The notes: generated by a model not told the origin, from the sequence alone. A stretch of DNA of 38,586 nucleotides from a virus (IMGVR_UViG_3300030330_002763:1-38586), one strand, 5' to 3'. Counted from the first letter of the stretch, positions 2,885 to 35,974 are shown. Numbers and translations are program-made.

Positions 2885-2909
2885 TTGATTCCTTAGTATG
2901 TGTATCAAA

Positions 2910-2939
2910 AACCTATAAATACGAAAGTAATTGTGTCAA
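2910..2939 (-). promoter_or_regulatory. Sigma70-like promoter for the replication operon
   Basis: Minus strand TTGACA (2939-2934), 18-nt spacer, TAGGTT (2915-2910), just upstream of the HTH gene RBS. Confidence 0.6.
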
Positions 2940-3009
2940 GATAAAAATTTAAATAGTACTATAAAACTCATAACATATGTAACAAATGTTTTATAAACCA
3001 TAAATAGAC

Positions 3010-3219
3010 TGTGACATAAATGTGACGTTGAAAGAATATAAATAGATATAAAACTATATAAATGTTTATAAAACAAATGTTACATACCCTCGAAAGGCTC
3101 TACCCTCGATAAACATAAAATTAGTACGCTGCACTCGAAAGATAGTGCATAAATTAGCTTTTGCTCCTCGGTAGATTGTTAATTTGACTAAAATAAATGT
3201 GTCGTAACTGTGACGTTAC
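3010..3219 (+). repeat. Two pairs of TGTG(A/T)C(G/A)T direct repeats with 11-bp period flanking TACCCTCGA repeats; candidate attP or regulator-binding region
   Basis: TGTGACATAAA-TGTGACGTT (3010-3029) and TGTGTCGTAAC-TGTGACGTT (3198-3217); TACCCTCGA at 3085 and 3101; AT-rich non-coding gap between the HTH and lysin genes. Confidence 0.5.
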
Positions 3220-3234
3220 TTTATTTTACTAAGT

Positions 3235-3301
3235 GGCCCCAGTCATTGCAACCGGGGCCATTCACCTTTAAAGAAAGGATAATTTCTGTAGAAAAAGGTG
3301 A
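3235..3301 (-). terminator. Two tandem hairpins ending the late operon
   Basis: TCACCTTT/AAAGGTGA (3262-3269, 3294-3301) and GGCCCCAG/CCGGGGCC (3235-3259) directly after the endolysin stop. No strong U-tract, so termination is inferred. Confidence 0.55.
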
Positions 3302-3309
3302 GGTCTAAA

Positions 3310-3726
3310 TTAACCTCTTATTTCAAAGTGAACAAGGTCATCGAACCGTTGGGTCTTATCAGCTCGTTTAGTACGTCCACTAAATCTTTGGTCTTGATTC
3401 CAGTCTCCACCCCAGCGAATAGTATAGCCTAATTTTTTACTAGCCATTTGCATCATACCAGCTAAGTAGTAGAAATCTTTTGTTGCCTCAAAGTCTATTG
3501 GATATGCAGCTATATCTACTGCTCTGCCAAGCTGATGATTACTTTTTCTGGTAACCCCATCTAGTTTGGATTTGCCATCGGCAAACAATTTTCGTTGTCT
3601 TTCAGCCGAACGTAATCCCTCAATAATAGTAATATCATAATGCTTGACAACTTCCTCTAGTACTTCTCTAAGGCGAGAATCAACACCTCTAAGTCTTTCT
3701 TTACTTCTTCTGCCGAATCTAGGCAT
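3310..3726 (-). CDS. Endolysin, peptidase M15 family (L-Ala-D-Glu peptidase-like)
   Basis: EGLRS..RQ, SNH..GRAVD, IRWGGDW and D.VHFE zinc-peptidase motifs. Confidence 0.92.
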   Translation of the reverse strand: MPRFGRRSKERLRGVDSRLREVLEEVVKHYDITIIEGLRSAERQRKLFADGKSKLDGVTRKSNHQLGRAVDIAAYPIDFEATKDFYYLAGMMQMASKKLGYTIRWGGDWNQDQRFSGRTKRADKTQRFDDLVHFEIRG

Positions 3727-6603: not shown

Positions 6604-8896
6604 CGTCAACCATATCCCAAGCCTCACCAAGAAACTCTAATTTTTTATTTAATTGTTTTATTGCCTCTATTAGTACTGGTACAACCTTTTCATAGTTGAC
6701 TGCTTTATATCCGTTATCTCTGGTTTCTACAAGACCCGGTAAATCTAGAGCCTCTATTTCTTGGGCAACAACTCCAACGTCTGCACCAGAATGACTATGT
6801 ACATTTTTAGGTCTGCTTTTTTTCCATTCAAAAGTATATCCATTAATTTTATCTACAAGGTCTAATGGGTTTTCTATAACTTTTAATTTTTTCTTTAATC
6901 TTTTATCTGATGAGAAAAATGCAGTTACATCATTTGTAGCTCTAATTTCTCCAGTTGTTCCAGATGCATTTGTACCTATTCCAAGACTATCGTGTCTTAC
7001 ATCATTAAGAGTACCTAGACCTAAATTAGTTGCTGCACCAGATGCAGAACTTGAGCCAGTACCCCCGTTGTTTACGGCTAAATCTGTTCCACTCCAATTA
7101 CTATTACTAATAGATGATGCAGTAGCTAATGAGCCTAATCCTAAATTTGACCTAGCACCACTTGCATTAGATGCACCAGTACCACCGTTTGTTACTGCTA
7201 AATCTGTGCCAGACCAATTACTATTACTTACGCTGGTAAGGTATCCAGAATTATTTGTCCATTGAGAAATGTTTCCACTTTTATTAGTAAAGGTTTGTGA
7301 ATTGGATGCCGTTGTCGTCCCGGTGTTTGTTGTATACCCAGCACCGTTAGTTAATTGATTATTATTAGTTGGTATAGTCGGAACAACTAAATCTATTGTA
7401 CCATCACCATCTTGATATGTGGCCGTAATATTTGTTTCTGTATTACTAGAAAACATTGCACCAACAATGTCTTGAACTTGCTCGGTAGACAGTTGGGTAT
7501 TAGTATTTGTATCTGTAGAACTTATGGTAACTGTTCTACCACTTTGTGAAACTGATGTTGCTCCAGAACCTTGGAATGTAACTGCTTGCCCATTAGATAC
7601 GCTAGTTGTGCTACCGGCTGCTAATGTCCAAGATGACATAGTTCCGGCTGATGTTAGGTAACCGGCATCATTTGTCCATTGCGAAATATTACCAGATTTA
7701 TTTGTAAATGTTTGTGAGTTAGATGCAGTAGTCGTACCAGTATTAGTGGTATATCCAGCACCATTTGTTAACTGATTATTGTTCGTTGGAATAGTAGTAG
7801 AGTTGTAAGCGTTAGACCCAAATATTTCTGAAAATCTTTTTCTTCTCTCGGCTCCATTATCTAATAAAATTAGCTCATCTTGGTCTTTATTAATGGCTCC
7901 CGTCATATCTGTTAACTCTGACAAGTCTAAACTAATAGTGGCCGTTCCAGTAGAAGTAAAAGTACCACCACCATCAAGACCGGCAGAAGTACTTATAGTT
8001 ATACTAGTAACCCCAGATGATGTAACAAAACCAGCTCCATTAGTGAGTTGGTTAGTATTAGATGGAATAGTTGGTTTGCCAGATAGGCTAGAATACGCCC
8101 CATCAAATATGGGTAATGTAACAGAATTACCACTACTAATACTTAAAGTTGTACCACTTATAGAAAGTGTTTGTGAGTCTGTTTGACTTGTTAAGTATCC
8201 AACATCATTCGTCCATTGGGATATATTACCACTCTTATTTGTAAAAGTTTGACTGTTCGATGCCGTAGTAGTTCCAGTATTCGTAGTATACCCGGCTCCG
8301 TTTGTAAGCTGATTATTGTTAGTTGGTATAGTAGTACTGTTGTAAGCATTACTTCCAAATATCTCTCTAAATCTTTTTCTTCTTTCAGCACCAGAATCTA
8401 ACAAAATTAATTCATCAACATCTGGGTCAATAGCACCAGTCATATCAGTTAATTCAGATAAGTCTAATGAGATATTTGTAAAACTTCCTCCAGCTCCGGT
8501 AAGATTTCCTCCTCCGTCTAGACCAGTTCCGACACCTAAAGAAACAGATGTAATACCGGACGATGTGACATAACCAGCTCCATTAGAGAGCTGGTTATTA
8601 TTAGATGGAATAGTTGGTGTATCATCTAAATCATTGTAGCTAATACCACTTGTGTCTCCAGAGAATGTTGCAGTTCCAGAAAAGGTAGGAGATGCCTTTG
8701 GGGCCTTACCAGTTACTGCTGAACTTCCAGAAGTTAAATAGCCAGAGTTATTTGTCCATTGACTAATGTTACCAGACTTGTTTGTAAACGTCTGGCTATT
8801 ACTCGCAGTTGTTGTACCAGTATTAGTTGTAAAACCAGAATTATTATTTAATTCTGATATATTATCATTTGCTAAGATTACTTTTTTATAAGCCAT
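6590..8896 (-). CDS. Long tail fibre with C-terminal intramolecular chaperone (peptidase S74)
   Basis: S/T/G/N-rich repeats, ARSNLGLG segments, and SDKRLKK...GYTFEW...GVVAQE...VNYEK S74 signature. Confidence 0.9.
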   Translation of the reverse strand: MAYKKVILANDNISELNNNSGFTTNTGTTTASNSQTFTNKSGNISQWTNNSGYLTSGSSAVTGKAPKASPTFSGTATFSGDTSGISYNDLDDTPTIPSNNNQLSNGAGYVTSSGITSVSLGVGTGLDGGGNLTGAGGSFTNISLDLSELTDMTGAIDPDVDELILLDSGAERRKRFREIFGSNAYNSTTIPTNNNQLTNGAGYTTNTGTTTASNSQTFTNKSGNISQWTNDVGYLTSQTDSQTLSISGTTLSISSGNSVTLPIFDGAYSSLSGKPTIPSNTNQLTNGAGFVTSSGVTSITISTSAGLDGGGTFTSTGTATISLDLSELTDMTGAINKDQDELILLDNGAERRKRFSEIFGSNAYNSTTIPTNNNQLTNGAGYTTNTGTTTASNSQTFTNKSGNISQWTNDAGYLTSAGTMSSWTLAAGSTTSVSNGQAVTFQGSGATSVSQSGRTVTISSTDTNTNTQLSTEQVQDIVGAMFSSNTETNITATYQDGDGTIDLVVPTIPTNNNQLTNGAGYTTNTGTTTASNSQTFTNKSGNISQWTNNSGYLTSVSNSNWSGTDLAVTNGGTGASNASGARSNLGLGSLATASSISNSNWSGTDLAVNNGGTGSSSASGAATNLGLGTLNDVRHDSLGIGTNASGTTGEIRATNDVTAFFSSDKRLKKKLKVIENPLDLVDKINGYTFEWKKSRPKNVHSHSGADVGVVAQEIEALDLPGLVETRDNGYKAVNYEKVVPVLIEAIKQLNKKLEFLGEAWDMVDDGYK

Positions 8897-11212: not shown

Positions 11213-14200
11213 TCAAGGTGTTGTATCAGCCGTCCTACGTTCCATTTCACCTTTCAATTCGCCTAGGGCATCCTCCAATCCTACTCTAGTTTTCTTGACC
11301 TTTGGTCTGTTTGTTCTTCTAGCACCTCGTACAGTTGGTAGTCTACCAACATCTACAGTTGCTCTTTCTTTTAATAACTTTCTTAATGATTTTGGTGTAG
11401 CTAATAATCTTGCTTGATTATCTAAAATCTGGTCAAATATTTTATTGTATTCATTCAAACCAATAACTCCATCAGAGTACAAGCCTCTTATAGATTCTTC
11501 TGCTGCCGTAACTTCATAACTATTTAACATTCTTCTTCTACTTTCTCTAACGGCTCTTTGATATCTTGATTGTCTTAAATCTTTTGTAGGTTTATAACTC
11601 CAGAATCTTCTTATAAAAGGTGTCTTTGATGGATTGAGGCCATCGTAGGTTTTATTTAAAATTCTATTATAATTTGTAACCTTATCACCTAATCCTATGG
11701 TGTTGTTCATAAATGTATAAACACCAGTAAAAGCTCGACCAAAAAAGTAATCTAGTTCTGCTGGACTTATATCTAATGTGCCTCCATCCATATAACTAAT
11801 TCTACCTAGAGGGTCACGATTACCATTAGGAGTAAGGCCGGGATTTCCGGGTAATGGGGCATTAGCTATAATATAGGATAAGTCTCTAAGGTCTGCCGGG
11901 GTTTTACCAAACTCTAGCTCAAAATCACTTATAATAGGGTCGTATTTATAAGGTTTGATTGTTCTACCTAATGCATCCTTATTTCGTATTAGGTCTGATG
12001 CCATAGATAATGGTAGCGTAGGCATACCAGATGCTGGAGCAAAATTACTAAACATAATATCATATGCTCTAGACCAATAATGGCCATCAGCCATTTCCTC
12101 ATCTGGTAATAATTTTTTTCTTTCGTAATTATAATCAGAAATCATAACACCTAGACCAGCAAACATTCCCCAGCCATATGCCATTCTAAAAGGTATATGC
12201 CCTCTCTTTTCACCCTCTACATTTGTAAATATATTATTAGGTATCTGGAAGTAATGGTCTCTTTCCCATTCCGATTTCTTTTCCCATTCCTCCTCATCGT
12301 GAGACCTACTCATTTCTGCAAGGTAGTATCCAGCAAACATAAAAGCTGATGACATAGCTGCTGCTTTCTTAGGGTTAGATTTCATTACTTGACCCATTCT
12401 ATATATATTGTTTACTCCTACCTTAGAAAACATATACATAGATTCCATTATACTGGCCAGCTCTCCACGTTTGTTAAAATCAATAGTAACGTCTCTGGCA
12501 GCAATAGCTGATTTTTCTGCTGGGTATCCATTTTGTCGCATAGCTATATATGTAGCTAATCTCATTTGGCCCTCAAAAACTTCGTTGACAGATTGTATAT
12601 ATTCCAGAGCAATTTTTAGATTAGACTTTGCTTGAGCTTTATCGCCCATTTTTTCCATACGTTTGCCAATGTCTTTATACTTATCCTCAAACCCTTTAAA
12701 ATCAAAGAAACTTATCTTTCCACCGTATGCTATCATTTCTTTATAGAATGCAATTGTATCTGTATCTGGCCTATCCTTTGGGTCGTTAAAATTATATTGA
12801 CGTATAGCATTCGCAGCCTTTGGAATATTTAGAGCTGCTTGAGCTGCAATCTTTACGCTATTCTCAATACCTAGATTTGTCAATCCGGTTTGTAAATCTG
12901 ATTGTACGTTACCAATAAAGAATTCTGGACTCCAAGAAGTCGCAGTTTGTTTGATAAAATTATTTACAGAGTTAGCAAATAAAACAATTGGATTCTGGCC
13001 AAAAACAGAATGCTGCTTAAATGACCTAGCAAGATTATCATTATTTATAGTTACAATATATTCTATACCATCCTCTTTCATTAGCATCTGGTTATCTGCT
13101 AATTCTGATGCATAGATATATTTAGGATTACCAAACTTATCGTAGTATTTACGGTCACCTCTATCTACTTGCTCAAACTCAAAAAGGGCCACCTTACTGC
13201 CGTTTTTATTCACAAAAACATCTGTGGCTCGTAATACATTAAGTAGCTTTAAATTAGTTTGATTTGCCTCTGCTCTGGTCATTCCCATCAGTAGGTTTTG
13301 CATACCCATTTCAAATATAGATTTTCTTTGTACTTGAGCATCTGTACCTCGGACTCTTTGGGACTCCGGGCCATTCAGAGAATGACCCTTTGTACCATCT
13401 ACATTCTTAAAGATTCCACCTACTCTTCCATCATCCTCTAGCTCTAAATTGAGAGGGACGTAATTTATAAAGCTGACATTATCTTTGGGGTCTTCAAATG
13501 TTTTGATTGGAGCATCGCCACTATATATTCTTGCTTGCTCTTCAGTAAGTAAGCCACCTTGTAACCTAACTTGTATATTTCTCAAAATAACATTTCGTCT
13601 AAATTCTTTAGCATAATCATCAATAACTGTATCCTTAAATTCATCTAAAATCTCATCGGCCTTTTCATCAGTCATCAATTCACTTTTATTATTATATCCA
13701 GCTCCAGCCTCTATGTCTGGATTCCTTGCTGCTACTAATGCATTTCTTTCTCTAGCGTGTTTAGCGTGCATATACCTATCAAGCATTTCTATGCTTATAC
13801 CACTCTTTGCCATTCTTGCTATAAAATCATCGGCCCACTCTAAGCTACTGTTAAACTTTGCAATTGCTATATTATAACTACGTCTTGCTTGACTGTAAAA
13901 ATCTTCGTTAACTCTTAGTCTACCTTTTTGACCCTCAAACTGTTCCGATAATTTTCTAAGTGGGTCTAGGTTATCATTTAGATATCTAGTAACACTACCT
14001 AATAAACCACCATCATAATAATCTAATTCACCCTCTAACCCTAAATTAAATCTCATTGGATGGTCTGCCTCTTCTCTAGCTTTCTTAGGGTCAAACTCCA
14101 TATATACAACATCTGGACGGCCATTAGTATCTGGATATTCTTTTTTATGATATTCGTACTGCCAATCTGGGGGAGCAAATTCATCATTCCAAGTATCTCG

Positions 14201-17200
14201 TCCAGTTTCTACAAATCCAAATAATTCATAGTAACCCGGTAGTTTACCCTCAAAGGCATCGAGGGTAATTTTATCAGCTCCCATTCTTTGAGCCTTTCTA
14301 ATAGCACTTCTCATCACCTCTTGCCCAGATACTTCTGTATTCTCACCACTAAAAACAGAGGCAATATCTACAGAGGTTGTACCATCTTCAAATTCTTTAA
14401 ATAGTAATGCAGCACCAGACTTGCCATCCTCGGACATTACTAATGTCGGAGTTACTTGTGTTGTGCCGTCAAAATCAACATATGGTTTTTGGTATTGCTC
14501 TAGGTCTTTAAGCTCAACAGAATAACCCTCGTCATCGTTGGCTTTGTGTTCTTCTAGGTTGTTATAAAAGGTTTGTGCTTGGGAGGGGTCTAACTCAGCA
14601 ACTTGTGGTACTTCTTTCGTAAAGAAACCGGGTCGCTTTTTGGGAGTTTCTTGAGTGTCCTCTGTGTCAACACTTCCACTAGGTCGTCCTCCATCTGGTT
14701 CTTGACTATCGGCCTCTTGAGGACTGGTTCCATCTTCTTCTTGAACTGTTTCCTCGCCAACTGCTTTATCGTCTCTAGATAAGATTTCTTCAGCTTTTCG
14801 TTCTTGCTCAAGTCGTTTAGGGTCTCGTATACGTCTAAGTGTGTTTTCATTAAATACTCCACCAGAATTTACTAAATTTTCAGCAACTGACAAATAGTCT
14901 GCCATAGATACGGTACTTCCAGTAGTTCCCATACTGGTAAAAATAGACTTTTCCATATACCAGATAAGAGCTTGAATATCAGCAGCACTAAAGTTTTCAC
15001 CAGTCTCTTTGTTAAATTCTTGTTGTACTGATGTTACAACTTCTCTGTATAACTTAATTCTTTTACGGTTACCATTATCTCTAAAATCTGTTCTAACTAA
15101 ATTGTCGGCCCAGTCTGTTTTTGTAGGGCCTTTATCTTTTGCTCTTTTTAGTTGATAGTTTGCTTGAGCTAATGATTTATTATCAAATGGCTGACCAAGA
15201 TGTGAGGCTATGTTTCTAAGCATCCACAAATCAATCGTAGGTATATCCTCAACCCCAGCTAGGTTTAATGTAAAGGCTCCAACTTTAGGGCCAAAAATTT
15301 CCATACCGTATACTGTTTCTTCAGCAGTTATACCAGATGGTAACGGGCCAACAACCTCACCGGGTTTTTTGCCAGCTTTGATTGTGTTTTTATATAGACC
15401 CATTTCAAATAATTCTTTCTTTAATTCTTTACCGGTCATTCTTCTGCTTAAAAAGTCTAATGCAGCAGTATGCCCACCTTTGTGTTTTGCTATAGTTTTA
15501 AAGGTTGCTATTTGATTAGATACGGCCTCAGAAGTTTTAGTATCAGTAGGAAAACCTTTGTCAATCATAAACTCATTTATGGCATTCATAAGGTTTGGTT
15601 CTGGTGCTTGGCTAGGACTTGTAATGCCTACCAGAAATGTAAAAAATGACCTTTCGTCTTGGTTATTAAGTTCTGGAAATTGTTCTGATAATAAATTTAT
15701 AGTCTGGTCAAACCTATCACCGTACCAAGTAGAGGCATAACTAAATAGTTCTGCATTGCTGGGATTACTGTAAAACTCTACTAGTTCTGGCAGTAATGAT
15801 TCTATACCTCTCTCTTTTACTTTCTTTATATACTGTGGTGATATTTTACCTTTTCTATTATACTTGATTGGTTTGAGACCTAGCTTTTCTAGTCTACGGT
15901 TTGTAATTGCAAGTAACGTATCATTTACTTTTACTGCTCTAGGTTGGCCAGTAGATGTTTGTCCAGCCTCTACAAATTGCCTTACAAAATCATCGTCACC
16001 TTTTACTAGTGGGGTTTCATCTTTTAATTCTATAGGAGGTAATGGATTTGTTCTACTTGATTGAAATTTTCTAGCTAATGCACCAACAGTTCCAATAGTA
16101 GCAACCTCAATAGCAAAATCTTCAGCACTAGGTATAACAAGGTCTCTAAACTCTCTTTCCCATTCTCCAGTATTCTGGTTAAATAATTGGAATCCGGGTC
16201 TTATCTCCATACCCGGTTGGTCAATACCTAAACCACCAATAAGCATATCGGCAGCTCTTTCCTCCATAATCTCTGGGATGATACCGTTAATATTTGCATT
16301 CTCCAGAAACTTTAATATTGTTTCGCTTTCTACATCTGGATTTCTTTTCTTAAAACTTTTAAATAATGCCCCGTTAAATACTTGGCCCAGAATACCTTGC
16401 TTATCTTTACTAACTCTAAATAAATCAAATGCCCCACCTAATCTTTCACTTAAACCCTCTACTACTTGAGAACCTACTGCACTTGTAACGGCATCAACCG
16501 TAGCTTTAGGGTCTTTAAAATTTAGATACTTAACATACTTTTGACCCTCTGGGCCATCAGCTACTTCTACACCAATAAGTTCTTGACTTCTAACTCTATG
16601 TTGTTCGTATGTATTCCAAGTAGCTAAACCTCGTCCGGCTGGATTTACTGCTAACGTAGCCTCAGACTGGACTGCTTGTCTAGCTTTGTTTGCAGCATTT
16701 AAAATTTTCTTTCTAAAATTTGGACTTGTAGCCAATGTCATTGCTCTGTTCATTCGTGGGAATACAGATTTTAGAGCATTCATTGCATTACCTTGCACAA
16801 CCCTACCAGCACCTCTAGTAATAATATAATCGCCCATCATTGTTAGGGCCTCTGCAAACTTATATCCTACAGATTTATCTGCATCAATAGAGTCTAGAAA
16901 TAAGGCAACATCCCGTAAGTCATTTACATATTCTGGTTTAATTAAATCTTGTGGACTTGCTCTATCTAATGCCTCAATCTTATCTGATAATTGGGCCATT
17001 CTAGATAAACCTTTTGCACTACCGTAAAAAGGTATGACATCACTAAAATATCTGGAGGGATGGTCTCTAAGAAAAAAGTCTTTTATATCTAATTGTTGAA
17101 CGTGATTATCTTTACCGGCAAAGTATAGATAGGCATCTTCGTAATCCATTGAACCGTTTTCAATAAATTTATCTACCTCATTAGTTATATCTCTGCCACG

Positions 17201-17692
17201 TTCTTGAAACTCTGATATTAATTTAGATTTATTTTCTAATAGGTCTTCACTTCTTATACGTCTTCTTCTAGCAGCCTCTACCTCTGTTAAGCCTACATCT
17301 TCTCTGTTCTTCTCATCCTCTTTTAACTGAACAAATACACCAGCTAACTCATTTACAGATTCTCTTCTATCTACAGTTTGCTGCTCATTTGAAAGTCTCT
17401 TTACAATTCTTCTCCTAGCTCTCGTTTTATCCATCTCACTTTTGAGAATGGCTGGAGTTTTATAATTATCTGGGTCGTTATCTATTCCAGATAAATATCT
17501 ACTGGTAAGGTCTTTAGCGTGGTCTCCCGGTAGTAATAATAAATCTCTGGTAGATAGCTCTTCATTTCTAGCTACTCTATCAAGTAGATTTCTAGCATAT
17601 TGCTCATATGGAGCATTAGCATCGGGTTGTACGTCTACATCTTTATCTCTGCCAAAAAATGTATCGAGTCTATCTTTTAGGGTTGTACCCAT
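11213..17692 (-). CDS. Giant internal virion (ejection) polyvalent protein: HhH-GPD-like domain, GNAT-like domain and LPD38-like C-terminus
   Basis: 2159 aa, largest of three genes at the ejection-protein position. GPKVGAF...TIDLWMLR...QALIW (about 14950-15760); TLDAF..LPGYY..FGF..GR..W (about 14095-14460); RDVTIDFNKRG and helical C-terminal region typical of large phage internal proteins. Confidence 0.8.
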   Translation of the reverse strand: MGTTLKDRLDTFFGRDKDVDVQPDANAPYEQYARNLLDRVARNEELSTRDLLLLPGDHAKDLTSRYLSGIDNDPDNYKTPAILKSEMDKTRARRRIVKRLSNEQQTVDRRESVNELAGVFVQLKEDEKNREDVGLTEVEAARRRRIRSEDLLENKSKLISEFQERGRDITNEVDKFIENGSMDYEDAYLYFAGKDNHVQQLDIKDFFLRDHPSRYFSDVIPFYGSAKGLSRMAQLSDKIEALDRASPQDLIKPEYVNDLRDVALFLDSIDADKSVGYKFAEALTMMGDYIITRGAGRVVQGNAMNALKSVFPRMNRAMTLATSPNFRKKILNAANKARQAVQSEATLAVNPAGRGLATWNTYEQHRVRSQELIGVEVADGPEGQKYVKYLNFKDPKATVDAVTSAVGSQVVEGLSERLGGAFDLFRVSKDKQGILGQVFNGALFKSFKKRNPDVESETILKFLENANINGIIPEIMEERAADMLIGGLGIDQPGMEIRPGFQLFNQNTGEWEREFRDLVIPSAEDFAIEVATIGTVGALARKFQSSRTNPLPPIELKDETPLVKGDDDFVRQFVEAGQTSTGQPRAVKVNDTLLAITNRRLEKLGLKPIKYNRKGKISPQYIKKVKERGIESLLPELVEFYSNPSNAELFSYASTWYGDRFDQTINLLSEQFPELNNQDERSFFTFLVGITSPSQAPEPNLMNAINEFMIDKGFPTDTKTSEAVSNQIATFKTIAKHKGGHTAALDFLSRRMTGKELKKELFEMGLYKNTIKAGKKPGEVVGPLPSGITAEETVYGMEIFGPKVGAFTLNLAGVEDIPTIDLWMLRNIASHLGQPFDNKSLAQANYQLKRAKDKGPTKTDWADNLVRTDFRDNGNRKRIKLYREVVTSVQQEFNKETGENFSAADIQALIWYMEKSIFTSMGTTGSTVSMADYLSVAENLVNSGGVFNENTLRRIRDPKRLEQERKAEEILSRDDKAVGEETVQEEDGTSPQEADSQEPDGGRPSGSVDTEDTQETPKKRPGFFTKEVPQVAELDPSQAQTFYNNLEEHKANDDEGYSVELKDLEQYQKPYVDFDGTTQVTPTLVMSEDGKSGAALLFKEFEDGTTSVDIASVFSGENTEVSGQEVMRSAIRKAQRMGADKITLDAFEGKLPGYYELFGFVETGRDTWNDEFAPPDWQYEYHKKEYPDTNGRPDVVYMEFDPKKAREEADHPMRFNLGLEGELDYYDGGLLGSVTRYLNDNLDPLRKLSEQFEGQKGRLRVNEDFYSQARRSYNIAIAKFNSSLEWADDFIARMAKSGISIEMLDRYMHAKHARERNALVAARNPDIEAGAGYNNKSELMTDEKADEILDEFKDTVIDDYAKEFRRNVILRNIQVRLQGGLLTEEQARIYSGDAPIKTFEDPKDNVSFINYVPLNLELEDDGRVGGIFKNVDGTKGHSLNGPESQRVRGTDAQVQRKSIFEMGMQNLLMGMTRAEANQTNLKLLNVLRATDVFVNKNGSKVALFEFEQVDRGDRKYYDKFGNPKYIYASELADNQMLMKEDGIEYIVTINNDNLARSFKQHSVFGQNPIVLFANSVNNFIKQTATSWSPEFFIGNVQSDLQTGLTNLGIENSVKIAAQAALNIPKAANAIRQYNFNDPKDRPDTDTIAFYKEMIAYGGKISFFDFKGFEDKYKDIGKRMEKMGDKAQAKSNLKIALEYIQSVNEVFEGQMRLATYIAMRQNGYPAEKSAIAARDVTIDFNKRGELASIMESMYMFSKVGVNNIYRMGQVMKSNPKKAAAMSSAFMFAGYYLAEMSRSHDEEEWEKKSEWERDHYFQIPNNIFTNVEGEKRGHIPFRMAYGWGMFAGLGVMISDYNYERKKLLPDEEMADGHYWSRAYDIMFSNFAPASGMPTLPLSMASDLIRNKDALGRTIKPYKYDPIISDFELEFGKTPADLRDLSYIIANAPLPGNPGLTPNGNRDPLGRISYMDGGTLDISPAELDYFFGRAFTGVYTFMNNTIGLGDKVTNYNRILNKTYDGLNPSKTPFIRRFWSYKPTKDLRQSRYQRAVRESRRRMLNSYEVTAAEESIRGLYSDGVIGLNEYNKIFDQILDNQARLLATPKSLRKLLKERATVDVGRLPTVRGARRTNRPKVKKTRVGLEDALGELKGEMERRTADTTP

Positions 17693-29760: not shown

Positions 29761-31132
29761 TTACGTCACTTAGCTTGTCTAGTTTTTCTAGCTCCCTTAT
29801 AACCCAAGGCTTTGCTGGCATTGGTTTATCGGGTCGGCCAATGTGAAAAAGTGTATATCTAGTTAAATCTGCAAGGTGGTCTTCTTGTTTTGTATCTAAG
29901 TCCTCAACTTTAAATTTATCGTGGCTCAATCCGGGTATAGTTCTAATCCAGTTTTCACAGTTTTCAAATATGAATAGCTTTGGAGCCTTAGTGAGTTTCT
30001 TTTTATTTATATCACCCTCCCAATGCAAATATGACCTCATATTGTTCCAGCCGTTTATTCGGTCGTTGTTTGCTTTGACAATCGGAATACCTTTCATTAG
30101 CATAATGTCGGCAATGGAAAGCATACTAGGAAGTTTTTCATCTGTACGGTTTGAGTTTTGTGGGTTTCTAATCCACATAGCTGGGTCACCAATAGTTAGA
30201 TAGATATCCTCATCACCGGTAAGCTCGATTATTTTTCTGATGTGATAATCCAGTACTTGACCAGCCTCATAATGCTCACGATACATAAAGACATCTCCAT
30301 CGTGATTGACTGCAAACCATCCACATCCAAAGTAACTAGTGTATCCATAATCAATTCCTCTATATCTTCTCCAACCATCTGGGATTTTAAAAGGCTCAAT
30401 AACGTGAATATCTCTATTAAATTCTTTAAAGTATTGCCCAGCAAAAGTATCCCAAGAACCATCTAACCAAGCACTTTTTAATTCATCTGGTAAAGACTCT
30501 AGCATATCTAAATATCCGGGGTCTACTTCCATAAGAGTAGGGTTATCATATATACGGCTAGGAATAAATATGCGAGAATTGTTTTTATCATCTATATAAG
30601 TTTTATTGTAAGCTGGGTCTACGAATCGTTCCTTAACCCAATGATGACCCGGGCCACCGGGATTAGTAGTACAGAATACTTGTACTTTAAGTTCTGGTAC
30701 TGTCGTTCGAGCCGAAGAAATAAGCCTTAAATACTTTTCTTCAGTATCAAGAAGTGTAAGCTCCTCAATCCCGATTTTTTGGTATTCGTGTCCTAGGAAT
30801 GCTGACCAAGAGTTTTCATCAGAAAGGTGACCCGTTCTTATTTTAGCTCCACTAGGAAATCTAAATTCTGCTGGATTACCAACAACCTTAACATCAAGAT
30901 ATCGCCACATATGTCTAGCATTATCAATCCAATCTCTTAAATCTGTATAGTTTCTTCTAATAACGAGGCCCCGATAAAGAGGATTTTCAATATAAGATGG
31001 CTCAACCATCCAAGCAGTCATAGCAGTAGATTTGCCCCCTCCTCTACTACCACCAAATAAGATTTCTTTCTCAGACCTTTGTAATACTCTTGTCTGTGGC
31101 CCATCGTGTGGTTTAAATACAACATTCTGCAT
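29738..31132 (-). CDS. terL: Terminase large subunit
   Basis: PHDGPQ, GGSRGGGKS (Walker A), IGIEE (Walker B), TTNPGG, GIDYG, and EDH..D nuclease motifs. Confidence 0.95.
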   Translation of the reverse strand: MQNVVFKPHDGPQTRVLQRSEKEILFGGSRGGGKSTAMTAWMVEPSYIENPLYRGLVIRRNYTDLRDWIDNARHMWRYLDVKVVGNPAEFRFPSGAKIRTGHLSDENSWSAFLGHEYQKIGIEELTLLDTEEKYLRLISSARTTVPELKVQVFCTTNPGGPGHHWVKERFVDPAYNKTYIDDKNNSRIFIPSRIYDNPTLMEVDPGYLDMLESLPDELKSAWLDGSWDTFAGQYFKEFNRDIHVIEPFKIPDGWRRYRGIDYGYTSYFGCGWFAVNHDGDVFMYREHYEAGQVLDYHIRKIIELTGDEDIYLTIGDPAMWIRNPQNSNRTDEKLPSMLSIADIMLMKGIPIVKANNDRINGWNNMRSYLHWEGDINKKKLTKAPKLFIFENCENWIRTIPGLSHDKFKVEDLDTKQEDHLADLTRYTLFHIGRPDKPMPAKPWVIRELEKLDKLSDVNELTIRA

Positions 31133-31139
31133 TAACAGT

Positions 31140-31148
31140 ATTGTAACA
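31140..31148 (-). promoter_or_regulatory. Extended -10 element (TGnTACAAT) 7 nt upstream of the terL ATG
   Basis: Minus strand TGTTACAAT-ACTGTTA-ATG; no SD-like purine run before the ATG. Confidence 0.5.
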
Positions 31149-31295
31149 CAAAGTCCAATACTAAGTAAGCTAAAAGTACGGTTAAAACTCAGAGCGTGAA
31201 AAGTGTATGTGCAGACTTGCAGTCTGTCACCTTGCCTCGGGGGGTGACCTTTGCTCCTTATAATTTGCGAGCAAGTGAGGCTGATTGACTGAGTT

Positions 31296-31314
31296 ACGTC
31301 ACATTCACGTCACA
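31296..31314 (-). repeat. Third TGTGACGT direct-repeat pair (11-bp period)
   Basis: ACGTCACA at 31296 and 31307, the reverse complement of the pairs at 3010 and 3198. Confidence 0.6.
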
Positions 31315-31503
31315 TTATGCGAGCCTACCGAGAGGGATACGCTACTTTTAATGTGCAGCCTACCTCGAATGGCAACCAATTCCAGAAAAGTACGGCACAA
31401 ACCGTGCCTAGTTGACCTAACATTTGACCCGTGTTGCATCGACTGTAAGTCTCTATTTACCGAGGAGGACGGCCCAATCTTATACTATTACATATATATT
31501 TAT

Positions 31504-31532
31504 TTGCATTTGTTACATTTGTAACATAAGTT
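31504..31532 (+). promoter_or_regulatory. Early promoter with palindromic operator in the spacer
   Basis: TTGCAT, 17-nt spacer, TAAGTT; the spacer contains the perfect inverted repeat TGTTACA-TT-TGTAACA (31511-31526). Confidence 0.65.
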
Positions 31533-31538
31533 CTAGTG

Positions 31539-31966
31539 TTGTTTGACAATTCGATTGATTAGTTTGAGGGCCTACGGCACTAGATTCATACTCGTAATAC
31601 TCACGGTATCCAGTCCGGAATCAACAGACCTAAATTACCCCAGACCAGTCATAGCCAGAATAATCGTAGGCACAGAAATACTTCTACCAGATATATATGA
31701 ACCAAAAACGGTTTAGCATAGCAATACAGTAGAATTTGCAACCCTTACCAAGCGTATGACTATAGGTACAAAAGTACTTATCAAGATAGAATCCGACAGT
31801 AACCAGATAACCATAGCAACTAGAAGTAACGTACAGATTCAGATTATTCGCATTATCTTTCTTTCTTTGTCGCCTCGCTACCGGGCGAATATTATCTGGA
31901 TGTACTTGATTTTAGTCTCCAGATAAAATACGGTAGCAAAGATTTCATAAAAAAAAGGATAATACA
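31539..31966 (+). ncRNA. Long structured 5' leader or ncRNA candidate
   Basis: About 430 nt with no ORF of 60 aa or more; stems GCCTACG/CGTAGGC, GATTC/GAATC, TTCTAC/GTAGAA, GCTACCG/CGGTAGC, TTATCTGGA/TCCAGATAA; possible pseudoknot AGTCATA/TATGACT. Confidence 0.5.
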
Positions 31967-32149
31967 ATGCAATATCATACATTACTAGTTTACTACAACA
32001 ATCAATGGTTTATTGAGTTTGGAGATTACGATTACAAAACAGTAGTCGAGGAACGTCAATGCAGTTATGCAGATGAGAGATGTAAAATCATCACGACAAC
32101 AGACGACCAAGCCAGTATTGATAAAGCAGTAGCTAACCTAAACAAGTAA
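31967..32149 (+). CDS. Early hypothetical protein
   Basis: AAAGGATAAT box before the ATG; WFIEFGDYD motif. Confidence 0.8.
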   Translation: MQYHTLLVYYNNQWFIEFGDYDYKTVVEERQCSYADERCKIITTTDDQASIDKAVANLNK

Positions 32150-32208
32150 CCAAGTCCCTCCTATATATGGAGGGCAAGATTTTTTTAATAAAAGAAAGGA
32201 TAATACAA

Positions 32209-32610
32209 ATGAAATACCTATCAGATTACACTAAAGATGCAATCTCAAAAGTACTAAAGGACAACGGTGCATTCTTCGCATTTAGTAACAAGCAATTTGA
32301 CGAACAAAAACAACCGGGTGTCAAGTATGCTGGTTTAGTTGGTGGCCTTGTTTGCCCAGTAGACAATAAACAAACAGTCCTAGATGAAGTAGAACGGGTT
32401 AACACCGAAGGTATCAAGCAAGATGTTGCAGACCATACAGTCCGACAGATTTGTTGGAGAGAATTCGCCAATCACGAAATACAATTTACTGGCGATTTGC
32501 AACCTATATATGATACCTTGTTACTGTACCCAATTGGCAAAGAAGAGATTGACAGACAATACGACAAGTACTATGCACATTGCATAAAACACTCTGACAG
32601 ATACTTTTAG
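32209..32610 (+). CDS. Early hypothetical protein
   Basis: Start moved to ATG 32209 after the repeat RBS box; MKYLSDY...GAFFAFSNKQF motif. Confidence 0.85.
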   Translation: MKYLSDYTKDAISKVLKDNGAFFAFSNKQFDEQKQPGVKYAGLVGGLVCPVDNKQTVLDEVERVNTEGIKQDVADHTVRQICWREFANHEIQFTGDLQPIYDTLLLYPIGKEEIDRQYDKYYAHCIKHSDRYF

Positions 32611-32686
32611 AGTACGTCACATAAGTCCTCTCCCAATCGCATCCCGGGAGAGGCAAGATTTCTATAATAAAAGAAAGGATAATAAG

Positions 32687-33112
32687 ATGAAAACAGTAAC
32701 AATCATCTATGAGGGTAGACGGCATAACAATGCAGTCTGGTTTCATTTCGATAGACAAAAAAACCAAATGACTGGTGAGGCACTTTGGTTCAAACCAAAC
32801 AAGCTAACTACAAGGTTTCCTCCCGGTATGATTATTGACATTGAACACGATGACAAAAATCGCAACTGGAGATTTGCAGATGCAAAATGGGGCGAAATAT
32901 GGGACAACGAAGAAGTTGTTAACCAGATGGTTTTATCTGACCAAATGGAAAAGCAGAAACTATCTGTAAAGCGTACTGAGAATAAGCTAAAAAAGCAGCT
33001 TGGTGAAAACTGGCAAGAGCTTACCATCAAACAGTTTAGAGACCAGTATATATTTATGACTGGTGTAGATAAACAAAATGCACTAGCTTTATTACTGAAG
33101 TCCTTAACGTAA
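32687..33112 (+). CDS. Early hypothetical protein
   Basis: Bounded by repeat elements; repeat RBS box precedes the ATG. Confidence 0.85.
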   Translation: MKTVTIIYEGRRHNNAVWFHFDRQKNQMTGEALWFKPNKLTTRFPPGMIIDIEHDDKNRNWRFADAKWGEIWDNEEVVNQMVLSDQMEKQKLSVKRTENKLKKQLGENWQELTIKQFRDQYIFMTGVDKQNALALLLKSLT

Positions 33113-33169
33113 ATAAGTCCCCCCTTTATAGGGGGGCAAGATTTCTATAATAAAAGAAAGGATAATAAA

Positions 33170-33496
33170 ATGAAGAAACGACTCGGAGCAAATCCAGTAA
33201 AGGTCTTGTTTGAGAACCGTTGGTTTCAAGTAGTTCTATTTGATAACAACTCTCTGGTTGTTAAAAATGGAATGCTTAATTATCAAGTATGTATTCAACT
33301 TGATGATACACCAAAAGAGTTTGAGGATAGACGTAAACGTGGACATATAAACATATCTAACTTCACAACCAATTATGGTAGAAGTCTATTAGATTTATAT
33401 GTAAACGGTAACCATTACGAACCTCAAAACGAACAAAATCATATGCCTTTAGTTATAAAGGACGATGAGAGAGTTGCAACAGAAAATTATCTGTAA
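33170..33496 (+). CDS. Early hypothetical protein
   Basis: Bounded by repeat elements. Confidence 0.85.
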   Translation: MKKRLGANPVKVLFENRWFQVVLFDNNSLVVKNGMLNYQVCIQLDDTPKEFEDRRKRGHINISNFTTNYGRSLLDLYVNGNHYEPQNEQNHMPLVIKDDERVATENYL

Positions 33497-33556
33497 CCTA
33501 AAGTCCCGGTCTATATGGCCGGGCAAAGTTTCTATAAAAAAAGAAAGGATAATAAA

Positions 33557-33946
33557 ATGCAAAATCATACAATAAATGTACCGGTTACATTGTTACCACA
33601 AACAGTAAATGATATAATCATTACTGCCATTGAGGGTGGTATTAATTACTGGTGCGAAACCGTATTAGGTGATAACCTAGAAGTTGGTAACGGTGCAGTA
33701 ATTAAGATTATTGAGGATGGTGGTACTTGGTCATCAGCAGATGACGTAACCCATAAACTAGACCTAGACAAATTTCGTTTGGGGATGTTGAGATGGGTAC
33801 AAAAAAACCCCGATTATGGATGTGTAACAATGGCCAGAGACTCTAAGGGTAAACTCGTCCTTAGTTTTGATGCCGGAATGATTGATGCCGGAATGGCTGA
33901 TTGCATCATTCAGTATGCACTTTTTACCAAGCTGAAATATGCATAA
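33557..33946 (+). CDS. Early hypothetical protein
   Basis: Start moved to ATG 33557; TAIEGGINYW...DA..AD.IIQYALF motif seen in phage early proteins. Confidence 0.85.
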   Translation: MQNHTINVPVTLLPQTVNDIIITAIEGGINYWCETVLGDNLEVGNGAVIKIIEDGGTWSSADDVTHKLDLDKFRLGMLRWVQKNPDYGCVTMARDSKGKLVLSFDAGMIDAGMADCIIQYALFTKLKYA

Positions 33947-34003
33947 CCAAATCCCCCCTTTATAGGGGGGTAAGATTTCTATAACAAAAGAAAGGATAAT
34001 AGA

Positions 34004-34357
34004 ATGCATTACGTTGAAGTAACTGTTGCTAACCAAGATGAAAATATAATCATCAATGAGGCTATAGAGGACGTTTTAGAAAGTTGTCACTATGAGGCCC
34101 AATACAGTTGGGAGCAACCAGACAAACCTAGTGAACCTCATAAAACCGTACTTGCTTTTCATCTAAGGAGGCACGTTGACGATTTCCTATCTGGTTTACA
34201 AAACGCTGAAGAGGATGGAGATATTGATTTTCCATTTAATGCCCAGTCATTCCAGAACTACGATGAGTATGCTGAATACAAGGGTTGGAATGAGGAGCCA
34301 GATGATGAGGATGCAGATGCACAATGGTTAGAAAATGCCTATGGCCCTAATGACTAA
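34004..34357 (+). CDS. Highly acidic early protein (possible DNA mimic)
   Basis: About 30 D/E versus 5 K/R in 117 aa by manual count. Confidence 0.8.
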   Translation: MHYVEVTVANQDENIIINEAIEDVLESCHYEAQYSWEQPDKPSEPHKTVLAFHLRRHVDDFLSGLQNAEEDGDIDFPFNAQSFQNYDEYAEYKGWNEEPDDEDADAQWLENAYGPND

Positions 34358-34459
34358 CACACCGTAACGGGACGGTTCGTTTCCCGTTGTAAGTCCCCCG
34401 TGTCAATCCCGGGCCGGTATCGGGGGCAAGACTTTACTAACTAAAGAAAGGATAAACAG

Positions 34460-34666
34460 ATGGACATACATCTACTACTGGTTGATGGCAGCAATATATC
34501 ATTGCTCTACACCAAAACACAAAAAGCAATAGACTGGATTGAGTCAAACCTAGGTAACGATTACTTGGTGTTTGCAAAAGGAATAGTTATAGAATCACAT
34601 TTAACAGATTCTGTACTACAAGGATTAAAAGCATCTAGTCTTTCCTATCTTATACAGAGGTCTTAG
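34460..34666 (+). CDS. Early hypothetical protein
   Basis: Bounded by repeat elements. Confidence 0.8.
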   Translation: MDIHLLLVDGSNISLLYTKTQKAIDWIESNLGNDYLVFAKGIVIESHLTDSVLQGLKASSLSYLIQRS

Positions 34667-34744
34667 ACCCATAAGTCCCCGGCTTTCTTCTTGTATTATC
34701 CTACCGGGGCAAAATTTTCATTAACTAAAAGAAAGGATAAGTAT

Positions 34745-35737
34745 ATGAAAATATACAAGCGTAGGAATTCTTCCTATTACTGGGTTGACTATGTCAACTA
34801 TGCCGGTAAGAGAATTAGAAAAAGCCTACAGACTAACAAGAAAGTTGATGCGATAACCAGAGCCAAACTTATAGAGAAAAAAGATTGGCTACTTTCAGAG
34901 GGGATGCAAGAATTCGATAGAGAGCCTATTACACTAGGCAAACTACATAGTGAATACATCCCAGAGGTAATTGACGTAAGTAAAAAAGCTGAAAGCAGTA
35001 AGGCAAATGACAAACGACAACTAGAAAGATTTGTCAACCTTATTGGGCCAGATACTTTACTTACTGATGTTACAGAAAGTGAATGTAATCGCTACATCAA
35101 TAAACTGAAAGAAACCCTAGTTGATATCACGATTGTAAAATGTGTTAGCATATGTCGTAGAATGTTTAAGTATGCACTTAAACCACCTTACAACCTAAAG
35201 CATAATCCATTTGAATGGTGTCAATCAGCAAAGGAACTAAATAAGCAAACAGAGAAAAAGCCTATTGTCCCTTGGAATACTATTCTAGGTGCAATTGACC
35301 AAGCTCCGGACATAGATACTAAAATGTTCTGGACATTGTTAGCTTATACCGGGATGGCCCCAGTAGATGCATCTAAGGTAACCAAAGAGGATTTTATTAA
35401 CGGCAGTTACAAGCGTACAAAATCCGGTGTACCTTTTATGCTTTACTACCATCCAGAAATTGCAAAGTATGGAGATGCTATATTTGGATTGTTCCAGAAG
35501 AAATCTCAGCGAGATACTTCCAACAGAAAATTCAAAGCACTTACTGGTCATATCACCTATGACATAAGACGTACTTTTGCGACTAGCGTAATGAATAAGT
35601 TCAAATCAGCAGAAGATGCAATAGCATTTACTGGTCATACGAATGTTAAAACTCTGGTTGACCACTATGCACACGCTGACCCAGAACTTGTTGCAAAGAC
35701 TCTTAGTCAAATCGTACCATCAATGGTACAAGCATAA
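34745..35737 (+). CDS. int: Tyrosine recombinase / integrase
   Basis: N-terminal arm-binding-like IYKR..SYYW...GKRIRKSL.T, helical core-binding domain, and catalytic region YTGMAPVD...RTKSG...YDIRRTFAT...GH.....DHY. Start at ATG 34745 after the repeat RBS box. Confidence 0.9.
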   Translation: MKIYKRRNSSYYWVDYVNYAGKRIRKSLQTNKKVDAITRAKLIEKKDWLLSEGMQEFDREPITLGKLHSEYIPEVIDVSKKAESSKANDKRQLERFVNLIGPDTLLTDVTESECNRYINKLKETLVDITIVKCVSICRRMFKYALKPPYNLKHNPFEWCQSAKELNKQTEKKPIVPWNTILGAIDQAPDIDTKMFWTLLAYTGMAPVDASKVTKEDFINGSYKRTKSGVPFMLYYHPEIAKYGDAIFGLFQKKSQRDTSNRKFKALTGHITYDIRRTFATSVMNKFKSAEDAIAFTGHTNVKTLVDHYAHADPELVAKTLSQIVPSMVQA

Positions 35738-35748
35738 GCGAGGGCAAA

Positions 35749-35934
35749 ATGAAAGAGATAAAGCCAGATGAGTTTGAGTGGAATGAGTTAGATTCTATGG
35801 TTCAAGTACTGCGAGCAGAAATGTCTACTCGCCAGTTTCAAGAGCTAAAGGCACTTGCTGCACTTAATCGCCAAACCCTACAGAAGTTTGTTGGTGGCAT
35901 ACTGAAAAGAGAAATAAGAAACTCTAAGAAGTAG
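35749..35934 (+). CDS. Ribbon-helix-helix (Arc/ParG-like) DNA-binding protein
   Basis: VLRAEM strand, FQELKALAALN helix, TLQKFVGGIL helix. Confidence 0.6.
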   Translation: MKEIKPDEFEWNELDSMVQVLRAEMSTRQFQELKALAALNRQTLQKFVGGILKREIRNSKK

Positions 35935-35941
35935 GGATAAT

Positions 35942-35974
35942 AAAAAGGCCCGGTAGAAATACTGGGCCTTTTTT
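35942..35974. terminator. Bidirectional intrinsic terminator
   Basis: AAAAAGGCCCGGTA-GAAA-TACTGGGCCTTTTTT between convergent operons. Confidence 0.9.

What the first reader, a model, noticed from the sequence alone, without database searches (positions are those of the whole stretch)
31877..35737. Cassette-like array: eight early genes each preceded by the same hairpin+RBS element, ending in a tyrosine recombinase
Seen: every intergenic gap holds AAGTCCC-[GC stem, variable loop]-GGGCAAGATTTCTATAA-AAAGAAAGGATAA-ATG. Stems differ but keep pairing (CCCTCC/GGAGGG, CCTCTCCC/GGGAGAGG, CCCCCC/GGGGGG twice, CCCGG/CCGGG, CCCCCG/CGGGGG, CCCCGG/CCGGGG), so structure appears selected. Cargo is one small unrelated ORF per unit, and the last unit carries the recombinase itself. 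Known analogues: integron attC cassettes (tyrosine recombinase acting on folded ssDNA hairpins), T4-type PeSL cassettes, mycobacteriophage start-associated sequences, and T7 RNase III sites. Inference: this may be a phage gene-capture/shuffling platform for host-takeover or anti-defence genes, or a modular mRNA processing/translation unit. The element is not a canonical attC, so a recombination role would be a new system.
Basis: partly seen in the sequence, partly recalled or inferred. Interest (0 to 1): 0.85.

Follow-up and report, generated by a model that had tools for sequence, protein, structure and literature searches.

The report
Shuffled phage genes with antisense off-switch
An uncultured marine phage joins its small early genes with a repeated hairpin-plus-ribosome-site unit at which its relatives have gained, lost and reordered genes, and the end of its late genes carries an exact mirror image of that shared ribosome site, which likely shuts the early genes off late in infection, while the neighbouring recombinase is likely just the phage's ordinary integrase.

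Summary
The repeat is real: seven joints plus a different, larger first leader. Thirteen related arrays carry the same joints around gained, lost and reordered cargo (37 of 250 gene-pair orders swapped). The cassette-recombinase idea is not supported. Swap points scatter. The recombinase is a lambda-type arm-binding integrase, and relatives hold a normal attP (tRNA-Leu fragment, arm-like repeats, repressor). A sister clade has a remote homologue but no such joints. The stems favour the mRNA strand (G·U 15, A·C 1), and the sister clade has hammerhead-like ribozymes in the same slot, so the joints likely process or protect mRNA. New here: the 3' end of the late operon holds a hairpin whose loop is the exact complement of the invariant early ribosome-site block (5 of 5 genomes). 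The sister clade has a different block and the matching different loop. This points to a late antisense shut-off of all early genes (inferred; no RNA seen). The scan has noted similar arrays and anti-RBS hairpins on other DNA. Verdict: new variant of a known kind, interest 0.6.

The parts
31504..31532 (+). sigma70-like early promoter with a palindromic operator-like sequence in its spacer (inferred)
   Evidence: conserved block in 7 of 7 aligned genomes, located
31853..31865 (+). near-complement of the RBS block at the 5' edge of the leader
   Evidence: invariant in 9 of 9 leaders
31870..31937 (+). first-unit leader: three helices forming a pseudoknot or a two-state switch
   Evidence: 153 of 153 cells paired, 9 of 17 pairs with double changes, 0 of 500 shuffles; no Rfam match
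31967..32149 (+). cargo gene 1, 60 aa, family F06
   Evidence: other genes stand in this slot in near-identical strains
32150..32208 (+). joint 2 (stem 32156-32174)
32209..32610 (+). cargo gene 2, 133 aa, DUF7659
32611..32686 (+). joint 3 (stem 32627-32653)
32687..33112 (+). cargo gene 3, 141 aa, no family
33113..33169 (+). joint 4 (stem 33119-33136)
33170..33496 (+). cargo gene 4, 108 aa, no family
33497..33556 (+). joint 5 (stem 33505-33523)
33557..33946 (+). cargo gene 5, 129 aa, phrog_2355 (unknown function)
33947..34003 (+). joint 6 (stem 33953-33970; A-T variant of the basal pair)
34004..34357 (+). cargo gene 6, 117 aa, family F16
34358..34459 (+). joint 7 (stem 34395-34426, with an extra hairpin before it)
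34460..34666 (+). cargo gene 7, 68 aa, family F02 (9 copies)
34667..34744 (+). joint 8 (stem 34677-34709); its loop holds a complement of the RBS block at 34694-34702
   Evidence: present after F02 in 9 of 9 arrays and after no other family
34745..35737 (+). tyrosine integrase, 330 aa: arm-binding-like N-terminus, core-binding and catalytic domains; first Arg and first His of the pentad replaced
35749..35934 (+). small RHH-like protein, no joint upstream
   Evidence: ParD-like, E 5e-4, below cut-off
35942..35973 (+). intrinsic terminator closing the early operon
   Evidence: equivalent in 8 relatives
3262..3301 (-). late-operon 3' hairpin with the anti-RBS core (3270-3286) at its tip, just after the endolysin stop (3310)
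3011..3214 (.). attP-like region: two arm-like tandem pairs (3011-3026, 3199-3214); relatives have a tRNA-Leu fragment between them, the window does not

Best explanation
The repeat is a standard joint between the genes of one phage early operon that likely works in the mRNA: its hairpin likely marks a cut or protects the end of the upstream message, and its fixed ribosome-site block likely lets one hairpin at the end of the late transcript silence all early genes. Shown: the joints, their covarying stems, their bias to the mRNA strand, cargo turnover at them, and the late-strand complement that changes with the block between two clades. Inferred steps: (1) one promoter near 31.5 kb makes a ~4.4-kb early transcript; (2) a host nuclease or the RNA itself cuts near the stem base, in the slot where the sister clade has hammerhead-like ribozymes, giving units of linker-RBS-gene-hairpin (about 45%); (3) late in infection the loop of the late 3' hairpin pairs with the 13-nt block and stops early translation, and shorter copies in the leader and after gene 7 act in cis (about 60%); (4) the repeats also serve as short homology for recombination that swaps cargo, as described for PeSLs (about 80%); (5) the recombinase integrates the phage at attP and does not act on the joints (about 85%).
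For: Strand: internal mismatches in 60 distinct stems are G·T 15, A·C 1, other 2. Basal pair covaries: G..C 43, A..T 6, no mixed case of 49. Sister clade (TerL 55-56%) has no joints (0 in 4 loci) but hammerhead-like motifs between stop and RBS (Rfam RAGATH-1-hammerhead 41.2 bits E 2.7e-5 and 27.1 bits). Anti-RBS: 17 nt invariant after the endolysin stop in 5 of 5 genomes reached without using the motif, on stems of different sequence (folding z -4.2 to -6.0); chance of the 13-mer 15 of 2000 shuffles per genome; a sixth genome found by the motif. The sister clade has a different block, and its late terminator loop is the complement of that block. Duplex energies: own pairs -15.9 to -17.2 (window joints 2-8) and -17.8 to -21.6 (sister, n=5); swapped pairs -8.0 to -10.4 and -4.8 to -8.7; best of 46 other-strand window ORFs -10.3; 84 of 110 elements carry the full 13-nt complement; the hairpin folds better on the late strand in 5 of 6. 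Shuffling; scattered swap points. Integrase and attP.
Against: No RNA was seen. The loop-block covariation rests on two clades, i.e. one contrast. In the window itself the anti-RBS hairpin folds slightly better on the opposite strand (-11.0 vs -9.9), and its second hairpin lacks the U tract seen in relatives. One of 25 opposite-strand ORFs in the sister clade pairs at -16.7, close to its early starts. The 15 G·T cases come from about six stem lineages (counted by eye). Both hammerhead matches are below the gathering score of 56.3 and carry the U4C change, reported to lower activity in vitro. Average linkage switches sharply across the invariant TT (A4 z +5.0 with the upstream gene, A7 z +3.1 with the downstream gene), as a fixed crossover would also give. 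The window keeps its integrase although it lacks the repressor and the tRNA core.
Confidence: 0.6

Rival explanations
1. Integron-like system: the integrase recombines the folded joints at a fixed point and shuffles cassettes.
For: The hairpin travels with the upstream gene (p 0.0002) and linkage flips at the invariant TT, like the G/TT crossover of attC. Loops vary from 4 to over 40 nt. The integrase ends the array wherever the 3' end is held, and a distinct first site exists. The window keeps the integrase without a tRNA core. A third arm-like pair lies about 560 bp upstream of the leader in 5 genomes.
Against: Close pairs break at many places: for a shared downstream gene, identity ends in the SD-ATG spacer 8, linker 5, before the stem 2, in the hairpin 1 of 16; L009-8 and L025-8 are identical up to the ATG with different genes after. 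Elements carry 0 of 95 arm-like pairs and 2 of 95 AAC..GTTRRRY. The protein has an arm-binding domain and a short catalytic domain (best fold match lambda Int, IntI rank 20). Canonical attP in 5 of 6 genomes. Slots 1-2 hold the most widely shared families, not the newest. A sister clade has a related integrase and variable cargo but no joints.
Confidence: 0.07
2. The 13-nt block is a DNA site for a phage protein (stoperator-like, or the RHH protein or excisionase), bound at each early gene and once near attP.
For: The lone copy lies 50-100 bp outside the attP arm pair in both clades; all copies lie on one DNA strand; the operon encodes an RHH-like protein.
Against: The lone copy sits at the tip of a hairpin whose stem was rewritten while pairing was kept, mostly favouring the late strand; the block overlaps the SD at fixed spacing; a separate palindromic operator lies in the promoters.
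Confidence: 0.12
3. The joints are PeSL-type promoter-plus-terminator units that transcribe each gene separately.
For: Same shuffling behaviour as PeSLs; sigma70-like matches in 25 of 95 elements against 6.3 in shuffles.
Against: 22 of those 27 matches have the -10 box running into the ATG, the rest end 0-4 nt before it, and none is in the window's own joints. The 8 nt after the stem hold only 2-4 T in 95 of 96, whereas the operon's terminator has a full U tract. One conserved promoter lies upstream.
Confidence: 0.08
4. The hairpin is only an insulator that keeps a strong RBS unfolded; nothing is cut, and the unit spreads by copying.
For: Joints are dispensable: 19 gene junctions in relatives have none; elements are slightly more alike within a genome.
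Against: It does not explain the invariant AA and TT (95 of 95) at the stem base or the bulged basal pair, the ribozyme-like motifs in the sister slot, or the matched late loop.
Confidence: 0.13

Closest known systems
PeSL cassettes of T4-type phages (PMC2839356, passages; PMC4122927, first third of the text)
   Same: Repeated stem-loop and SD units between small unknown genes; cargo gained, lost and swapped at them by recombination without a dedicated recombinase.
   Different: PeSLs contain a sigma70-like promoter and a working terminator; these joints have neither in a usable position. Minicircles were shown for PeSLs, not tested here. No antisense partner in the passages read.
Start-associated sequences (SAS) of cluster K mycobacteriophages (PMC3203893, section 15, part 1 of 2)
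   Same: A 13-bp asymmetric block over the RBS of non-structural genes, conserved beyond 16S pairing; four genomes have one copy in the opposite orientation not tied to a gene start; function left open (RNA or protein partner).
   Different: Different sequence and hosts; here each block is fused to a covarying hairpin, and the lone copy is shown to sit in a hairpin loop at the late 3' end and to change with the block.
P1/P7 c4 antisense RNA (review PMC12197685, passages) and S. aureus icaR 3'-UTR (PMC3868564, abstract)
   Same: Loop-exposed or 3'-UTR sequence pairing with an RBS region to block translation.
   Different: One target mRNA each; here one late 3' end would target every early gene through a standardised block.
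Tandem hammerhead ribozymes in phage-like operons (PMC3088659, PMC6765202, passages); T7 early RNase III sites (recalled)
   Same: Cutting signals between early genes of a polycistronic RNA; the sister clade has hammerhead-like motifs in this slot.
   Different: The joints match no Rfam family and are far shorter than RNase III stems (recalled); cleavage is not shown.
Integron attC/IntI (PMC3518468, PMC8138268, passages)
   Same: Hairpin with a variable tip downstream of each gene, a tyrosine recombinase nearby, a distinct first site.
   Different: No RYYYAAC/GTTRRRY pair, no two-box stem, structure favoured on the top strand, scattered crossovers, arm-binding integrase without the integron insertion.

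Membership tests
Integron (attC/IntI) | Sites bounded by RYYYAAC...GTTRRRY | tested here: not met
   2 of 95 elements with AAC..GTTRRRY (definition)
Integron (attC/IntI) | Folded bottom strand is the substrate | tested here: not met
   G·T 15 vs A·C 1 favours the top strand
Integron (attC/IntI) | Crossover at one fixed base | tested here: not met
   scattered ends of identity in 16+7 close pairs, although average linkage flips at TT
Integron (attC/IntI) | Simple recombinase (no arm-binding domain) with an insertion in the catalytic domain | tested here: not met
   three-stranded N-terminal sheet plus helix, short catalytic domain (definition)
Integron (attC/IntI) | Recombinase-dependent excision of circular cassettes | not testable with these tools
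   needs an excision assay; no zero-gap circular joint at an element in four contig sets, which cannot show absence
PeSL | sigma70-like promoter in each unit | tested here: not met
PeSL | Stem-loop is an intrinsic terminator | tested here: inconclusive
   no U tract at the stem base; activity not measured
PeSL | Cargo indels and swaps bounded by the units | tested here: met
SAS-like block | Asymmetric ~13-bp repeat over the RBS of non-structural genes, one orientation | tested here: met
   definition
SAS-like block | Cluster K consensus sequence | tested here: not met
   different sequence
Arm-binding phage integrase with attP | AB, CB and CAT domains | tested here: met
Arm-binding phage integrase with attP | RKHRHY catalytic set | tested here: inconclusive
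   first Arg is A/S/T and first His is Y/K in 14 of 14; K, second R, H and Y kept; active integrases lacking the first Arg exist
Arm-binding phage integrase with attP | attP: host tRNA fragment flanked by arm-type repeats | tested here: met
   5 of 6 clade genomes; core absent in the window itself
Trans-acting anti-RBS RNA | Loop-exposed complement specific to target RBSs and covarying with them | tested here: met
Trans-acting anti-RBS RNA | RNA is made and represses translation | not testable with these tools
   needs RNA data or a reporter
Known self-cleaving ribozymes | Match to an Rfam ribozyme model | tested here: not met
   none for joints or leader

The most novel reading that the evidence does not exclude
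A fully RNA-run early-to-late switch: the early message is cut into standard one-gene units by an undescribed self-cleaving or nuclease-guiding motif (pseudoknot leader and bulged hairpins standing in for the sister clade's hammerheads), every unit carries the same RBS tag, and the 3' end of the late mRNA silences all tags at once, so any newly captured gene is automatically put under the same timer. The same logic would explain the opposite-orientation SAS copy of cluster K mycobacteriophages.
Probability: 0.3. Interest if true: 0.85.

Novelty: new variant of a known kind. Interest (0 to 1): 0.6.

Why it matters
Phages carry blocks of rapidly swapped early genes, and why their ribosome sites are often identical has been open since SASs were described (PMC3203893). 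A late-transcript hairpin that mirrors the shared site, and changes with it between clades, gives a direct test: one RNA, one compensatory swap, one reporter. If right, standardised joints let a phage capture new genes without rewiring their timing. Showing that the adjacent recombinase has an ordinary attP also removes a tempting false lead of a phage integron.

Tried and rejected
Rfam: nothing meaningful for joints or leader. The single-protein scan and the first motif scan of viral contigs found nothing; the leader scan had a wrong gap length and is uninformative. No integrase relative in GTDB genomes or annotated phages; one motif match in a Clostridiales MAG lacks hairpin and array and was dropped. 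Host not identified; the tRNA-Leu fragment is too general. No tRNA genes in 5 loci. No RNA holder listed. One search shows no zero-gap circle at a joint, but contigs drop rare forms; variation within the window's own population was not examined. Minus-strand terminator reading: rejected by the G·T bias. Hairpin-ribozyme, k-turn, HDV and twister-sister likeness were considered from memory and rejected because key bases are missing. T-tract/A-tract coupling-site idea: not supported. Polarised insertion at the leader: slots 1-2 are the most shared, although 12 of 13 joint-less junctions lie in the 3' half of four arrays, unexplained. The 17-nt anti-RBS scan gave 22 hits: 4 clade members and 18 without endolysin homologue or attP, taken as background. 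The window's attP-like core matches no tRNA. PADLOC was not run on the cargo.
Full report
Setting. The window is a near-complete, circularly permuted 38.6-kb tailed-phage genome: its two ends are the halves of one gene, and it has TerL, a P22/SU10-like portal, capsid, tail fibres and endolysin on the minus strand. Runs that hold the stretch are mostly marine. The host is unknown. The finding is the only plus-strand operon: eight genes with joints, then an RHH-like gene and a terminator.

Observation. Seven joints read stop - AAGT - GC stem with variable loop - CAARRYTT - A/T linker - GAAAGGATAA - ATG; they are far beyond chance. Gene 1 has a larger leader. In 9 of 9 leaders it forms three helices that cross as a pseudoknot or alternate as a switch: 153 of 153 cells paired, 9 of 17 pairs with double changes (the structure was derived from these same sequences, so the slid controls favour it). 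No Rfam family matches.

Relatives. Integrase and motif scans gave loci L001-L030. I parsed 14 arrays including the window, 110 elements, and dropped L003 (the window's own phage), near-duplicates of L001 and L025, fragments without an array and one chance match. Arrays have 8-14 units where complete, start at the leader and end at the integrase. Cargo falls into 27 shared families and 23 singletons. Among seven long arrays, 37 of 250 shared gene pairs are in swapped order. Contigs of near-identical strains (four runs of four studies) show other genes after the same joints (loose ends at 32208, 32682, 33575, 34470) and, in one run, gene 3 joined directly to a joint-5-type hairpin; that contig does not span the next gene. 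Cargo function is unknown.

Is it RNA or DNA? With G·T and A·C treated alike, 60 distinct stems hold 15 G·T, 1 A·C and 2 other mismatches (about six lineages by eye), so the top strand is the folded one. The base two before the stem covaries with the base after it (G..C 43, A..T 6 of 49), giving a basal pair with a one-base bulge; AA and TT at the stem base are invariant in 95 of 95. The joints are neither usable promoters nor U-tract terminators; one promoter-like block with an operator-like palindrome is conserved upstream. A sister clade (L040-L044, TerL 55-56%) has the same layout, variable cargo, one shared cargo family and a remote integrase homologue (28% over 134 aa), but no joints. 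In the same slot it has hammerhead-like motifs (below Rfam's gathering score). Tandem hammerheads that cut phage-like polycistronic RNAs are known (PMC3088659, passages; PMC6765202, passages). I infer a processing or end-protecting role; the nuclease is not identified.

Does the recombinase act on the joints? For: the hairpin travels with the upstream gene (p 0.0002) and the linker with the downstream gene (p 0.0003 without the integrase), with a sharp flip at TT. Against: close pairs end their identity at many places, including whole elements that go with the upstream gene up to the ATG, or with the downstream gene from before the stem; 19 junctions have no joint at all. Elements mutate faster than genes, so a first mismatch is only a rough crossover. 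The protein models as an arm-binding, three-domain integrase (pLDDT 77; best match lambda Int), whereas integron integrases lack that domain and carry an insertion (PMC8138268, passages). Its first Arg and His are replaced in 14 of 14 homologues; active integrases lacking the first Arg are known. After the endolysin gene, 4 of 5 genomes checked, and a sixth found later, carry arm-like tandem repeats around the 5' ~40 nt of a tRNA-Leu, beside an XRE repressor in L001 and L009. The joints hold no arm-like pairs (0 of 95) and no attC motifs (attC features from PMC3518468, passages). Caveat: the window keeps the arm pairs but has neither tRNA core nor repressor. Short-homology recombination, as for PeSLs (PMC2839356, passages; PMC4122927, part 1 of 3), is the simpler cause; the phage encodes an exonuclease, whose role in this is an inference.

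The anti-RBS hairpin. The RBS block recurs once without an ATG, just past the endolysin stop. On the late strand it is the tip of a two-tier hairpin followed by a second, terminator-like hairpin; 17 nt are invariant in 5 of 5 genomes while the stems differ. I then asked whether the sister clade, whose block is different, shows the same. It does: the loop of the terminator hairpin right after its last late gene is the complement of its own block. Matched duplexes are 7-15 kcal/mol stronger than swapped ones, and other-strand starts in the window pair weakly. Shorter complements sit in the leader (9 of 9) and in the loop after family F02 (9 of 9, and after no other family). Limits: two clades only, no RNA data, the window's own hairpin is strand-neutral, one sister off-target at -16.7, and a DNA-site reading remains because the copy lies near attP in both clades.

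Comparison and novelty. It works like a PeSL array in shuffling, like SASs in its RBS block (PMC3203893, passages and section 15 part 1 of 2), and like c4 RNA or the icaR 3'-UTR in the proposed control (PMC12197685, passages; PMC3868564, abstract). It fails membership of integrons and PeSLs on tested features. T7 RNase III sites and RNase specificities are recalled, not checked. I found no paper describing this element or a late-mRNA anti-RBS switch in searches; the library is partial and no supplements were read (the SAS figure S3 lists the opposite-strand sites). The scan's own notes list 95 similar arrays and several anti-RBS hairpins on other DNA, none on this genome or look-alikes; they are unchecked leads, and my anti-RBS reading came. 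Verdict: real feature, new variant of a known kind; interest 0.6.

Noticed in passing
L043:1784-1870 (-) and 2408-2488 (-); L040, L044: Type I hammerhead-like motifs with a U4C core change between early genes of the sister clade; one copy in L040, two in L043/L044.
   Followed up: partly
window 31298-31313: A third arm-like tandem pair, with conserved CCTCGGGGG and AAAAGT..GCAC blocks nearby, in the TerL-leader gap of 5 genomes; could be an RHH site, packaging signal or second integrase site.
   Followed up: partly
window 2908-3310: The window lacks the XRE repressor gene and tRNA-Leu core found here in relatives but keeps the arm-like pairs and operator-like palindromes: a lytic derivative or a changed integration target.
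   Followed up: partly
window 31132-31850: No conserved small-terminase ORF upstream of TerL, whereas the sister clade has a 116-aa candidate there.
   Followed up: no
L001, L007, L009, L025 arrays: 12 of 13 joint-less, overlapping gene junctions lie in the 3' half of the array.
   Followed up: partly
L056:~1830-1880: Sister-clade attP: different arm-like repeats around a tRNA 3' half (identified by eye).
   Followed up: no
window 11213-17692 (-): 2159-aa protein with a weak LPD38 match, probably an injected virion protein.
   Followed up: no
window 7014-8875: Coding repeats in the tail-fibre gene.
   Followed up: no
window 34365-34388: Extra hairpin ahead of joint 7 that is absent after the same gene family in L008 and L017.
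   Followed up: no
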